Shown here in pieces: positions 15,001 to 18,000 of a stretch of DNA of 46,428 bases. The stretch's first letter is position 1. Every line of letters begins with the position of its first letter. The DNA is from a virus (taxonomy: Duplodnaviria; Heunggongvirae; Uroviricota; Caudoviricetes): the IMG/VR virus record IMGVR_UViG_2622736468_000002, one strand, 5' to 3'. The position numbers were made by a program.

Positions 15001-18000
15001 TTATGAGACGATGCAGAGCGTAAATGACAACTTTCATGCCCTTTATCCTGAAGGACGATGGGGTGTTGATTTTAATGAGCATCGCTTTGCTTTATTTGAT
15101 TTTTTTAAAAACGGGAAACGAAAAAAACGGCATTTATGGCAATTGAGTTCAGGGAAAGAGATGAAGAGAAAATAATAACAGGTGTAACAATTGATATTGG
15201 TATATCTGGAACAGTGATTTCTGAGAAGTCCCGAATCCCAAAAAGACGACCATGGGTAGTGGTTGGTCCCGAACACGGAGAATACAGTACTTATTCAACT
15301 TTGGACAAGGCTGCTACAGCGTTTTTTGAGAGGCTTTCGTTGATAGCATCCGGCCTGGAAGATAATTGATTTTATGTTTGGTATTCAGAGTTCGCCGTGC
15401 TTAAGAAAGTCAAGATTCTAAAAATACTGAATGAGCTACTTGTGTTATAACAAAAATGCTATTAGTGTGTTAAGAGTGGTTACTTCGCCACACAACTTAA
15501 ACCCGCCACTGAGCGGGTTTTTTGTACCTGTAAACTTGGTGCAGTACAGTAAACACGCTGGTGGTCGTGAATACTGGCTTTTTATCTTGCTGGCTTTTTA
15601 GACAAGAGTTATTGGTATGTCACGTTAACCGGAAAGGGTAAAAAGACATGCTGAAACAGCAGGATATGACAGAAACCGCCAGAGTTGTGTTTGATGAATT
15701 AAGCGTTACCGAACCGGCGACAGTCGGGGAGATTGCGCAGAATACTTACCTTTCACGCGAACGCTGCCAGTTAATACTGACCCAGCTTGTTATGGCGGGT
15801 CTGGCAGACTATCAGTGCGGTTGTTACAGACGCCTTCAGTCCTGAAGGCTTTTTATTTGTGGTGAATGGGCGGCTGGTGGGGGGGCGACACCTGTCAGTC
15901 CTTTGCTTATGTGTTGATGATAATTTACCTTTTGGGGCTATAATTGAGCTAACCAATTGCTAATGAAAGTAAAATTATAATGGCTGTTGTCTGTTCAGTT
16001 ATCATGGTTTGCTCCCCAATTAATATTTTTCTTGAAAAGGATACGTTGTCACTTAAGCCAGGCTCAGTTGTTCTGGCCACCAAATGCATCAGGGAGCTTT
16101 TCCTTATGCATTATGGCAAAGTTAAAATTGTCGATATAAGCGAATCCGTCGTAAGTCAATATCTGGAAAGTCAGCATAAGCTGACGAGGACTCGTCTGAC
16201 TGACATTCCGCTTTACCTGTTGCTGGAACCCAACAATCCTGCGTTGGCTGCGGCTTTAATTACCAGCCAGGGATTTTCCGGAGAGGCCACGGATATGTTT
16301 CTTATGATGGCCTGCCTGTCTCTGTTTGAAACAGATGAACGGATGTCATTGTTTTTAAGTGGATGTTTATCCAGCATAAGTGCCAAAGTCAGGGCGATAA
16401 TTCAGACAGATATATCAGCAAGCTGGACGCTTGGTGCGATTGCTCTACAGTTGCATATGAGTGAGAGTTTGTTAAAGACAAAACTGAAAAATGAAGGGGG
16501 CATGTTCAGTCGCTTGTTGCTGGAAGAGCGGATGCGTGTTGCTGTAAATATGTTATGTTCCCGGCATGGATATGGACAGGCTATAGCAGAAAAATGCGGT
16601 TATTCAAGCAGGTCCTACTTTATTTCTGTATTTCACCGCTATTATGGCTTCCCGCCAGACAGATATGTATCCAGGCAAGGGCTTGATTATTGATTTTCAT
16701 CTGATTATTATTTTTGGCTCGGCCCTTTAGCTCAGTGGTGAGAGCGAGCGACTCATAATCGCCAGGTCGCTGGTTCAAATCCAGCAAGGGCCACCATCAC
16801 ATACCGCCATTAGCTCATCAGGAAAGAGCGCCAGCCTTCGAAGCTGGTTGCGCGGAGTTCGGGTCCCCGAAGGCGGTTCATTATCTGTATCCTGCGTTGT
16901 TAGCTCAGCCGGACAGAGCAATTGCCTTCTAAGCAATCGGTCACTGGTTCGAATACAGTAGAACGCGCCACACTTATTTTCCCTGGCTCGCTTTTGCGGG
17001 CTTTTTTTTAAATGTCTCACAATTCAGGCGGTTGACTGTTGTCTGGTTTGCGGGGAGTTTGTTAAAAGAAACTGGCATGGTGAATCCCCCTGTGCGGAGG
17101 GGCAATCAGCGAGTAGGTATATGGGATAATCGCGGATTCAGGTGCTGGTACTGAATTCACCGGGAGGCACCCGGCACCATGCAATGGCACATAGTGCCAC
17201 TCTCCAGCCCCTCTCCGGAGGGGCTTTCTTATGGACAAAAAAAGCCCGCGCAGGGAGACGCGGGCGGCAAGGAATAAACAACAAAACGTGAAGTAATATT
17301 TCAGCTGGCGAATAATATCCGACAGTAATCACTCTGCGCAATAGCGCGGCCTTTTTCGTATTGCGGGCTGTTGTCTATCTTCTGCCATTGTCCTGTAACT
17401 TCCGGACTTCAGCCCGCTCCTCATTTTACTCACAATATTATCCAGGCCGGGAGGATTCATGGCATTTAAACACTATGACGTGGTCAGGGCGGCGTCGCCG
17501 TCAGACCTTGCGGAGCGACTGACACAAAAACTGAAGGAGGGGTGGCAGCCATTTGGCAGTCCGGTGGCCATCACGCCTTATACCCTGATGCAGGCCATTG
17601 CGGCGGAAGGTGATGTCACCACACCTGTGGTGGTGAAGCCGTCGGATGGAGAAGGCGCAGTTATCAGCACCACCAGCAACCCGGAGTATTACTTTGTTGT
17701 TGCCCTGGCCGGGCAGTCAAACGGTATGGCGTATGGTGAAGGGCTTCCGCTGCCGGAGACATATGACCGTCCGGACCCGCGTATTAAACAGCTGGCGCGT
17801 CGCAGCACTGTCACGCCGGGTGGTGCGTCCTGTAACTACAATGACATTATTCCTGCGGACCACTGCCTGCATGATGTTCAGGATTTGAGTAAGTTTTCAC
17901 ACCCGAAAGCTAGCGCAGCTCAGTATGGATGCGTGGGGCAGGGATTACATATCGCGAAGAAATTGTTGCCGTTTATTCCGGCGAATGCCGGTATTCTTCT

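What the first reader, a model, noticed from the sequence alone, without database searches (positions are those of the whole stretch)
15560..16700. Two-regulator moron (small winged-helix-like protein plus AraC-family regulator) before the tRNA cluster
A 65-aa putative DNA-binding protein and a 237-aa AraC-family regulator, both low in GC, sit between Q and the tRNAs. Prophage AraC-like regulators in pathogenic E. coli are known to rewire host acid-resistance and secretion regulons; the small partner may be a co-regulator.
Basis: partly seen in the sequence, partly recalled or inferred. Interest (0 to 1): 0.4.

Follow-up and report, generated by a model that had tools for sequence, protein, structure and literature searches.

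The report
Known PsrB regulator beside unrelated small gene
The larger gene is a near-identical copy of PsrB, an already studied prophage regulator of E. coli acid resistance. The small gene beside it is a common lambdoid-phage late gene that normally sits in front of a DNA methyltransferase, so the two are neighbours by gene swapping rather than a working pair.

Summary
Both ORFs are real and intact. The 237-aa protein (15980-16693) is an AraC/XylS regulator with both helix-turn-helix motifs. It differs by 3 residues from the EDL933 O-island 57 protein (PsrB by inference) and is 90.7% identical to Sakai ECs1087 (psrA). Published work shows Psr proteins activate gadE, yhiF and hdeA, raising acid resistance and indirectly repressing type III secretion.

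The 65-aa ORF (15648-15845) is a conserved protein (PHROG 331, dN/dS about 0.18) with a helix-turn-helix core. It is not a Psr partner:
- In 2017 E. coli genomes, 20 of 23 loci from other genera, and phages SfV, mEp460 and 1720a-02, it precedes an M.EcoGII-type DNA methyltransferase. It precedes psr in only 725 E. coli genomes.
- Homology with methyltransferase loci stops about 15912 and resumes just before the tRNA at 16721. An ~800-bp low-GC psr cassette with its own promoter-like element therefore replaced the methyltransferase and its structured leader.
- A terminator-like hairpin separates the two genes.
- The small ORF next to psrA in Sakai is frameshifted.

Verdict: ordinary and already known, low interest. 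One side lead remains: the small protein may control the methyltransferase.

The parts
15980..16693 (+). psrB-type AraC/XylS regulator gene, 237 aa and intact. The N-terminal domain (about 1-130) is YdeO/PatE-like; the C-terminal DNA-binding domain (about 134-233) has two HTH motifs.
   Evidence: Pfam HTH_AraC and HTH_18 score above their cutoffs. The YdeO model aligns end to end. The GadX DNA-binding domain 3mkl matches residues 134-233 at 7e-19. Identity is 100% to WP_000301785 in strain 19AR1724, 98.7% to EDL933 WP_000301797.1 and 90.7% to Sakai ECs1087. It matches phrog_1450 at 1.5e-98.
15913..16716 (+). The psr cassette: about 800 bp of low-GC DNA (41.8%) filling the cargo slot that holds a methyltransferase gene and its leader in most related prophages.
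   Evidence: In the four-way alignment, similarity to the methyltransferase locus fades at about 15912 and returns about 4 nt before the tRNA at 16721.
15917..15944 (+). Candidate psr promoter, ATGATA-16 nt-TATAAT, 36 nt upstream of the ATG.
   Evidence: It is tied for the best sigma-70-like match in 14200-17600, at 10 of 12. The sequence is identical in the psrB (Xuzhou21) and psrA (Sakai) loci. This is a consensus match only; no transcription start is mapped here.
15648..15845 (+). Small conserved late-operon gene, 65 aa, PHROG 331, with a helix-turn-helix core. It is the usual upstream neighbour of M.EcoGII-type methyltransferase genes.
   Evidence: phrog_331 at 6e-37. There are 295 homologues, with named examples in Escherichia, Salmonella, Klebsiella, Citrobacter and Buttiauxella. 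dN/dS is 0.18. AlphaFold pLDDT is 83.5 with helices at 4-18, 26-32, 37-49 and 53-59. Synteny is shown.
15832..15858 (+). Terminator-like hairpin (GCCTTCAG-TCCT-GAAGGC plus T-run) overlapping the small ORF's stop codon.
   Evidence: Found by the terminator scan. Free energy is -10.5 kcal/mol with z -3.86, and 0 of 200 shuffles fold as well. A hairpin sits at the same place with different stem sequences in other genera.
15859..15912 (+). Decayed remnant of the methyltransferase leader, including a Chi site at 15873-15880.
   Evidence: It aligns to the first third of the conserved ~150-nt leader, but the long hairpin is broken. The window segment folds no better than shuffled sequence (z -0.09), whereas the intact leader gives z -3.2.
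15499..15525 (+). Strong intrinsic terminator about 125 nt upstream of the small ORF; a candidate tR' of the late promoter.
   Evidence: Sequence AAACCCGCCACTGAGCGGGTTTTTTGT. Free energy is -12 kcal/mol with z -3.56. All nine aligned loci, downstream of several different Q types, carry a terminator at this position with different stem sequences. Phage SfV annotates one there.
16721..16970 (+). tRNA cluster: ileZ-type (anticodon CAT), Arg-TCG and Arg-TCT. It forms the right boundary of the cargo slot.
   Evidence: ARAGORN. Named ileZ1/argN1/argO1 in the Sakai Sp4 annotation.
14291..14677 (+). Q antiterminator gene.
   Evidence: PF06530 at 1.5e-47.

Best explanation
Two unrelated things lie side by side in the accessory-gene hot spot between Q and the lysis genes of a lambdoid prophage.

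(1) The 237-aa gene is an allele of psrB, one of the prophage-encoded secretion regulators of E. coli. It sits on an ~800-bp low-GC cassette with its own promoter-like element, so it can be made in the lysogen. By analogy with characterised PsrA and PsrB, its C-terminal AraC-type domain would bind the gadE and hdeA promoter regions of the host GAD island and activate gadE, yhiF and hdeAB. That would raise glutamate-dependent acid resistance and, in LEE-positive hosts, repress type III secretion through GadE. This step is inferred from near-identity, not shown here.

(2) The 65-aa gene is the first ORF after the tR'-like terminator of the late operon. It belongs to a two-gene module whose second member is normally an M.EcoGII-family adenine methyltransferase behind a structured ~150-nt leader. 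In this prophage lineage the methyltransferase and most of its leader were replaced by the psr cassette. The small gene is left as a neighbour by descent, not a functional partner.
For: Identity:
- The window protein has 3 substitutions against EDL933 WP_000301797.1: A103V, H196Y and I202V.
- WP_000301797.1 lies at 1905274-1905987 of NZ_CP008957, inside the published O-island 57 interval 1849324-1929825.
- The window protein is 90.7% identical to Sakai ECs1087, called psrA in PMC13502914. The O-island 57 copy is likewise 90.7% identical to ECs1087, which matches the published 90% between PsrA and PsrB.
- Both HTH motifs score above the Pfam cutoffs.

Published function: PsrA and PsrB induce gadE and yhiF and repress T3SS. 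PsrB binds the hdeA and gadE promoters and raises acid survival (PMC10877973 and PMC8565820).

Module swap:
- The homology breakpoints are at about 15912 and 16717.
- Small ORF plus methyltransferase occurs in 2017 E. coli genomes; small ORF plus psr in 725.
- In 20 of 23 loci from other genera, a ~350-aa ORF follows the small ORF at about 150 nt and no AraC-sized ORF does. The six of these ORFs scanned with Pfam all match PF01555.
- The same pairing is seen in phages 1720a-02, mEp460 and SfV.
- The methyltransferase is 99% identical to that of phage 1720a-02, which PMC5778455 names as very similar to M.EcoGII.

Separate transcription: a hairpin with T-run lies after the small ORF (z -3.9). 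A promoter-like element at 15917-15944 is identical in the psrA and psrB loci.

Dispensability of the neighbour: Sakai ECs1086 has a 1-nt deletion that replaces its last 16 residues.
Against: - No expression or binding data exist for this allele.
- The promoter is a consensus match only, and the region as a whole has no excess of such matches (7 found against 6.2 expected).
- Every psr copy of at least 90% nucleotide identity in complete E. coli genomes is preceded by the small ORF: 725 genomes with the joined pair against 726 records with the gene. Co-occurrence from the psr side is therefore complete. I explain this by the fixed slot, but it is also what a partnership would predict.
- EHEC genomes carry several copies of the small gene (up to 8 places per genome). 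The Sakai frameshift and the complementation with psr alone therefore do not strictly exclude supply of the small protein in trans.
- The PsrB assignment rests on coordinates and percent identity, not on a record labelled Z2104. The primary papers (Tree 2011, Yang 2015, Bender 2012) could not be read.
Confidence: 0.85

Rival explanations
1. One reading: the small DNA-binding protein and the AraC regulator form a functional two-regulator unit, with the small protein as co-regulator or modulator of Psr.
For: The two genes are always adjacent where psr occurs: 725 genomes with the joined pair against 726 records with a psr copy of at least 90% identity. The small protein has an HTH core.
Against: The small gene is about 2.8 times more often paired with a methyltransferase in E. 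coli. No AraC-sized ORF follows it in any of the 23 loci from other genera. The recombination breakpoint, a terminator-like hairpin and a separate promoter-like element lie between the genes. The neighbour of psrA in Sakai is frameshifted. A diverged Psr-like gene (58.6% identity) in strain 2013C-3181 sits after the tRNAs, next to a methyltransferase fragment and not next to the small ORF. Reviews report that psr alone complements in trans and that PsrB binds DNA directly.
Confidence: 0.06
2. The small protein is a general controller of whatever cargo follows it. It would act on the hairpin at its own stop codon or on the downstream leader, by antitermination or translational activation. It would therefore tune psr expression during prophage induction even though it did not evolve with psr.
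For: The hairpin overlapping the stop codon is kept, with different stems, in most genera. That hairpin is retained in the window. The module lies in the late operon, where read-through matters.
Against: The long leader hairpin and the helix covering the methyltransferase start are lost in the window (z -0.09 against -3.2). Any leader-specific target is therefore gone. Psr has its own promoter-like element, and its published phenotypes are in uninduced lysogens.
Confidence: 0.08
3. The AraC-like ORF is a decaying, inactive remnant.
For: It carries three substitutions relative to EDL933 PsrB, and a related allele in strain S88 has a 2-residue deletion at 197-198.
Against: The reading frame is full length. 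The N-terminus aligns from residue 1 with the EDL933 CP-933H AraC regulator (probably PatE) and with the YdeO model. Both HTH motifs score above cutoff. The exact protein sequence is on at least 1000 contigs. By my placement of the helices from the canonical AraC domain layout, which was not aligned to a structure here, the substitutions are conservative or outside the two recognition helices.
Confidence: 0.02

Closest known systems
PsrB (Z2104, O-island 57 of E. coli O157:H7 EDL933) and PsrA (ECs1087, Sakai prophage Sp4)
   Same: Same length (237 aa), at 98.7% and 90.7% identity. The position is the same in each prophage: small ORF, then psr, then ileZ/arg tRNAs, then the NanS-p-type esterase. 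The upstream promoter-like sequence is identical.
   Different: There are three substitutions against PsrB. The Q type upstream differs: PF06530 Q plus a WYL gene here, DUF1133 in O-island 57. No T3SS effector or pch genes are visible in this window. The closest whole-prophage matches are O104:H4 and FORC strains; O104:H4 is LEE-negative from my own knowledge, not tested here. The T3SS arm of the published circuit may therefore have no target in this host.
PatE (Z0321, prophage CP-933H) and the chromosomal YdeO/GadX/GadW group of AraC regulators
   Same: The same two-domain architecture and the same regulon theme of gadE, hdeAB and acid resistance. Identity to the EDL933 CP-933H AraC regulator is 37% over the full length. 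The YdeO model aligns end to end and the GadX model over the C-terminal half.
   Different: A distant paralogue only. All NCBIfam scores are far below the equivalog cutoffs (108 against 348 for YdeO). The genomic location is different.
Small-ORF plus M.EcoGII-type methyltransferase module of lambdoid phages (SfV orf47-orf48, mEp460 gp52-gp53, phage 1720a-02)
   Same: The 65-aa gene here is orf47/gp52 of that module: 92% identical to the SfV copy, 51% to the mEp460 copy and 97% to the 1720a-02 copy. It has the same upstream terminator and the same hairpin at its stop codon.
   Different: The methyltransferase and two thirds of its structured leader are missing here, replaced by psr.
Com-Mom of phage Mu (analogy only, recalled from general knowledge)
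   Same: A gene for a roughly 60-aa protein directly upstream of a DNA-modification gene that is harmful when expressed. The modification gene's start region is buried in RNA structure.
   Different: Com is a zinc-finger protein, whereas this one has an HTH core. There is no sequence similarity, and no RNA binding was tested. This is a lead, not a membership claim.

Membership tests
AraC/XylS transcription regulators | A C-terminal DNA-binding domain of about 100 aa with two helix-turn-helix motifs | tested here: met
   HTH_AraC scores 50.3 bits (cutoff 26.6) in 2 stretches, and HTH_18 scores 39.8 bits (cutoff 33.6) over residues 155-230. The GadX DNA-binding domain 3mkl matches at 7e-19 over 134-233.
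AraC/XylS transcription regulators | An N-terminal companion domain (dimerisation or signal sensing) | tested here: inconclusive
   Residues 1-130 align with the N-terminal part of the YdeO model and of the EDL933 CP-933H AraC regulator, probably PatE. No Pfam domain was found and no function was tested.
Psr (prophage-encoded secretion regulators PsrA/PsrB) | Close sequence identity to PsrA or PsrB | tested here: met
   98.7% to the EDL933 O-island 57 copy and 90.7% to Sakai ECs1087. All fall in one 90% cluster of 2285 members.
Psr (prophage-encoded secretion regulators PsrA/PsrB) | Encoded only on lambdoid prophages, in the late region | tested here: met
   The order here is Q, WYL, small ORF, psr, tRNAs, esterase, with lysis and structural-size ORFs downstream. 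The order is the same in Sakai Sp4 and EDL933 O-island 57.
Psr (prophage-encoded secretion regulators PsrA/PsrB) | Association with T3SS effector loci and Pch regulators on the same prophage | tested here: not met
   By inspection of the translations, with no family search run, the right end of the window holds Lom-like, tail-fibre and DinI-like ORFs. No effector or pch gene is apparent. pchA is present in Sakai Sp4. This is an association reported in the literature, not a requirement for function.
Psr (prophage-encoded secretion regulators PsrA/PsrB) | Activates gadE, yhiF and hdeA, and binds the hdeA and gadE promoters | not testable with these tools
   Known only from the literature for PsrA and PsrB.
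Winged-helix (TrmB/MarR-like) DNA-binding proteins, for the 65-aa ORF | Three-helix HTH core | tested here: met
   The AlphaFold model has pLDDT 83.5 with helices at 4-18, 26-32 and 37-49. It superposes on PcaR, Z-alpha, PefI and IscR at rmsd 0.9-2.0 A and TM 0.64-0.71.
Winged-helix (TrmB/MarR-like) DNA-binding proteins, for the 65-aa ORF | A beta-hairpin wing after the recognition helix, and a significant family-level sequence match | tested here: not met
   The model predicts a fourth helix (53-59) in place of a wing. All Pfam matches are below threshold, the best being TrmB at 17.8 bits against 25.6. All Foldseek E-values are 0.4 or higher. There is no NCBIfam match.
Small-ORF/methyltransferase late-operon module (PHROG 331 plus PF01555) | The small ORF is followed at about 150 nt by an N6_N4 methyltransferase behind a conserved structured leader | tested here: not met
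   The small ORF is a member (phrog_331, 6e-37). In the window, however, the methyltransferase is absent and only about 65 nt of decayed leader remain.

The most novel reading that the evidence does not exclude
The 65-aa helix-turn-helix protein may be the dedicated controller of the silent, toxic, non-specific adenine methyltransferase (M.EcoGII family) that normally follows it. It would act on the conserved, structured ~150-nt leader that buries the methyltransferase start codon, with a logic like Com-Mom of phage Mu. In psr prophages such as this one it would be an orphaned remnant. This would explain how lambdoid phages keep a genome-wide adenine methylase off in lysogens and turn it on late. 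It concerns mainly related loci: the window holds only the small gene and a decayed stub of the leader.
Probability: 0.25. Interest if true: 0.5.

Novelty: already known. Interest (0 to 1): 0.15.

Why it matters
For the finding as stated, it matters little. The regulator is a known, experimentally characterised family (PsrA/PsrB), and this allele occurs in hundreds of sequenced E. coli.

Two modest points are useful:
- Psr genes ride in a defined swap slot, bounded by the stub of the methyltransferase leader (just after the small late gene) and by the ileZ tRNA. That slot otherwise holds an M.EcoGII-type methyltransferase. This explains the constant neighbourhood and warns against reading adjacency as partnership.
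- This psr prophage most resembles prophages of O104:H4 and FORC strains and shows no effector genes in the window. In such hosts Psr would act only on acid resistance.

The side lead is a conserved small protein plus a structured leader in front of a toxic methyltransferase. It could make the control of M.EcoGII-type enzymes testable.

Tried and rejected
- The primary Psr and PatE papers (Tree 2011, Yang 2015, Bender 2012) are not held. Function rests on two reviews and one 2026 paper.
- The old EDL933 record NC_002655, which carries Z locus tags, is not in the collection. PsrB identity was inferred from O-island coordinates instead.
- I looked for psrA at the published O-island 50 coordinates in the newer EDL933 assembly and found no psr copy. 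The reviews place psrA at z1789 in O-island 50, whereas PMC13502914 places it at ecs1087 in Sp4. I used the latter and did not resolve the disagreement.
- A paper search on locus tags was swamped by unrelated uses of 'PSRB'.
- Rfam found no family for the region between the small ORF and psr, or for the methyltransferase leader.
- I asked whether the sRNA HnrS, which up-regulates psrA, is the STnc100 element next to the tRNAs. The lengths differ (66 nt against about 190-206 nt) and the paper does not mention STnc100, so I dropped this.
- I considered a Chi site (15873) as the cause of the swap junction. Chi is over-represented across the whole window, so the position may be coincidental.
- The invariance of the motifs MLKQQDMT and ERCQLILTQ among the fetched loci is partly an artefact, because those were the search patterns used. 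I did not use it as evidence.
- I found no convincing sigma-70 promoter between the upstream terminator and the small ORF by eye or by scan.
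Full report
**What is there.** The window carries a lambdoid prophage. Around the finding, all on the + strand, the order is as follows:
- a DUF968 gene (13293-14288);
- a Q antiterminator (14291-14677, PF06530, E 1.5e-47);
- a WYL-domain gene split into two ORFs (14726-15369);
- a 65-aa ORF (15648-15845);
- a 237-aa ORF (15980-16693);
- three tRNAs (16721-16970: anticodons CAT, TCG and TCT);
- an STnc100 sRNA match (17046-17236);
- a 653-aa sialate-esterase-type gene (17459-19420).

**The 237-aa protein.**
- It matches HTH_AraC (2.4e-13) and HTH_18 (5.8e-10), both above Pfam's cutoffs.
- It aligns end to end with the YdeO model (4e-31), and over its C-terminal half with GadX, HilD and others. 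All these scores are far below the equivalog cutoffs.
- The closest solved structure is the GadX DNA-binding domain (7e-19, residues 134-233).
- At DNA level the gene occurs in 830 of 5426 complete E. coli genomes. In 595 records the best copy is at least 99% identical.
- The protein is identical to WP_000301785 of strain 19AR1724. It differs at three positions (A103V, H196Y, I202V) from WP_000301797.1.
- WP_000301797.1 lies in EDL933 at 1905274-1905987. That is inside the published interval of O-island 57, 1849324-1929825, which carries psrB/z2104.
- It is 90.7% identical to Sakai ECs1087 once that gene's too-short annotated start is extended. The discoverers' laboratory calls ECs1087 psrA.
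- The O-island 57 copy and ECs1087 are 90.7% identical to each other, which matches the published 90% between PsrA and PsrB.
- The exact window sequence is on at least 1000 contigs, and all three proteins fall in one 90% cluster.
- It is 37% identical to the AraC regulator of EDL933 prophage CP-933H, which I take to be PatE.

I conclude that the gene is an intact psrB allele.

**How it most likely works.** According to the reviews:
- PsrB binds the hdeA promoter (-132 to -45) and the gadE promoter, and increases survival at pH 2.5-3.5.
- psr supplied alone in trans is active.

By near-identity I infer the same activity here; this step is not shown. The 2026 paper reports that psrA rises when the sRNA HnrS, which represses hha, is expressed. 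That fits H-NS/Hha silencing of this low-GC cassette, which is 41.8% GC against 52.0% for the window. The silencing link is my inference.

The window's closest whole-prophage matches are O104:H4 and FORC strains. By inspection of the ORF translations, no effector or pch gene is visible at its right end. O104:H4 lacks the LEE; that is from my own knowledge and was not tested here. In such a host only the acid-resistance arm of the circuit would have a target.

**The 65-aa protein.**
- It is a real gene. It matches phrog_331 at 6e-37.
- It has 295 homologues; those named by their sources come from Escherichia, Shigella, Salmonella, Klebsiella, Citrobacter and Buttiauxella. A genome scan added loci in Proteus, Mixta, Mangrovibacter and other genera.
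- Median dN/dS is 0.18.
- An AlphaFold model (pLDDT 83.5) gives four helices.
- The first three helices superpose on winged-helix domains (PcaR, Z-alpha, PefI, IscR) at TM 0.64-0.71. Foldseek E-values are all 0.4 or higher and no wing is predicted.
- Pfam hits to TrmB, MarR and HTH_20 are below threshold.

'HTH protein' is therefore reasonable. 'Winged helix' is only a resemblance.

**Why it is not a Psr partner.**
- The small gene is in 2883 of 5426 E. coli genomes, against 830 for psr.
- Joined to psr it occurs in 725 genomes. Joined to a ~350-aa DNA methyltransferase it occurs in 2017.
- In 20 of 23 loci from other genera, a ~350-aa ORF follows it at about 150 nt, and no AraC-sized ORF follows it in any of the 23. 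Six of these ORFs were scanned with Pfam and all match PF01555.
- The same pair is present in phages 1720a-02, mEp460 (where the small protein is only 51% identical) and SfV.
- The methyltransferase is 99% identical to that of phage 1720a-02. The M.EcoGII paper names that enzyme as very similar to M.EcoGII, a non-specific adenine methylase that is silent in the lysogen and harmful when expressed.
- A four-way alignment shows the psr loci and a methyltransferase locus share the small ORF, the hairpin at its stop codon and about 65 nt more. They then diverge at about 15912 and rejoin about 4 nt before the ileZ tRNA. An ~800-bp psr cassette therefore replaced the methyltransferase and most of its leader.
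- Between the genes lies a hairpin with T-run (15832-15858, -10.5 kcal/mol, z -3.9). There is also a promoter-like ATGATA-16-TATAAT at 15917-15944, tied for the best match in the region and identical in the psrA and psrB loci.
- In Sakai, the small ORF next to psrA has a 1-nt deletion that replaces its last 16 residues.
- In strain 2013C-3181, a Psr-like gene of 58.6% identity sits beyond the tRNAs, next to a methyltransferase fragment and away from the small ORF.

The complete co-occurrence seen from the psr side is explained by the fixed slot.

**Context of the small gene.** About 125 nt upstream lies a strong terminator (15499-15525, -12 kcal/mol, z -3.6). All nine aligned loci, downstream of several different Q types, have a terminator at that position with different stem sequences. 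SfV annotates one there. I read this as a candidate tR', which would make the small gene the first ORF of the Q-dependent late transcript. I found no convincing promoter for it.

**Side observation.** The ~150-nt spacer between the small ORF and the methyltransferase is strongly conserved from E. coli to Proteus and Mixta.
- RNAalifold predicts 35 pairs, 7 of them with compensatory changes, mostly contributed by the Proteus sequence.
- One predicted long-range helix pairs GGUCA..AAGC with GCUU..UGAUC, covering positions -14 to -3 before the methyltransferase AUG.
- The E. coli leader folds at -64.4 kcal/mol, z -3.2. The corresponding window segment gives z -0.09.
- No Rfam family matches.

Together with the reported toxicity and silence of M.EcoGII, this suggests that the small protein and the leader control the methylase. 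This is speculation. It is the most novel reading the evidence leaves open, and it concerns related loci more than this window.

**Verdict.** The regulator is already known. Interest is low.

Noticed in passing
window 14726-15369 (+): The WYL-domain gene between Q and the small ORF is split into 149-aa and 77-aa ORFs. Relative to the intact 205-aa gene of E. coli S88 (L001 3554-4171), the window lacks a single A and has no other mismatch, so this is a fresh frameshift or a sequencing error.
   Followed up: partly
window 17046-17236 (+): A strong match to the sRNA family STnc100 (RF02076, 140 bits against a gathering score of 47) lies just downstream of the tRNA cluster. The same element sits in the equivalent place in E. 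coli DS566 (L006 5076-5281).
   Followed up: no
L006 2734-2898 and the equivalent spacers in L010-L031, L036 and L037; relic at window 15846-15912: A conserved, structured ~150-nt leader lies between the small ORF and the M.EcoGII-type methyltransferase gene. It has a long hairpin with compensatory changes in Proteus, and a helix covering the methyltransferase start. It has no Rfam family.
   Followed up: partly
window, whole; 15557-15564 and 15873-15880 flank the small ORF: Chi sites (GCTGGTGG) are strongly over-represented: 13 found against 2.05 expected, and none of 100 shuffles reached 13. Ten are on the + strand. One lies in the leader stub about 30 nt left of the point where homology to methyltransferase loci ends (~15912).
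   Followed up: partly
window 15499-15525 (+): A strong intrinsic terminator, missed by the pattern scan. It is conserved in position, but not in stem sequence, in all nine aligned loci downstream of several different Q types. It is a candidate tR'. A block TGTTAAGAGTGGTTACTTCGCCACA just upstream is shared with Sakai Sp4, phage 1720a-02 and a Salmonella locus and may mark the late promoter and Q-utilisation site.
   Followed up: partly
window 15980-16693 and 16721-16970: The psr gene is rich in rare codons that the adjacent tRNAs should read: ATA for 5 of 15 Ile, and AGA/AGG for 6 of 13 Arg. The tRNA that ARAGORN calls Met (CAT) is annotated as tRNA-Ile/ileZ in RefSeq and in Sakai.
   Followed up: no
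L004 28344-28583 (Sakai ECs_1086) and 28804-29391 (ECs_1087): In Sakai Sp4 the small ORF next to psrA carries a 1-nt deletion that changes its C-terminus. The annotated psrA start gives 195 aa, but the reading frame extends to a 237-aa protein whose N-terminus aligns with the window protein (PsrB-type).
   Followed up: yes
L038 (EDL933 NZ_CP008957 1630000-1679999): Reviews place psrA (z1789) in O-island 50, but this interval of the newer EDL933 assembly has no psr-like sequence by tblastn. A 2026 paper gives psrA as ecs1087 in Sakai Sp4. The locus naming in the literature is inconsistent, or the old assembly differed.
   Followed up: partly
L001 4782-5489 (E. coli S88): The S88 allele of the regulator lacks two residues (Gly-Tyr, 197-198) in what I take to be the loop before the second HTH, and is otherwise identical to the window protein.
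   Followed up: no
L033 (E. coli 2013C-3181): A diverged Psr-like gene (58.6% identity, 241 aa) sits after the tRNAs and a TolA-like gene, directly downstream of a 3' fragment of a methyltransferase gene. The same prophage also keeps the intact small-ORF/methyltransferase pair.
   Followed up: partly
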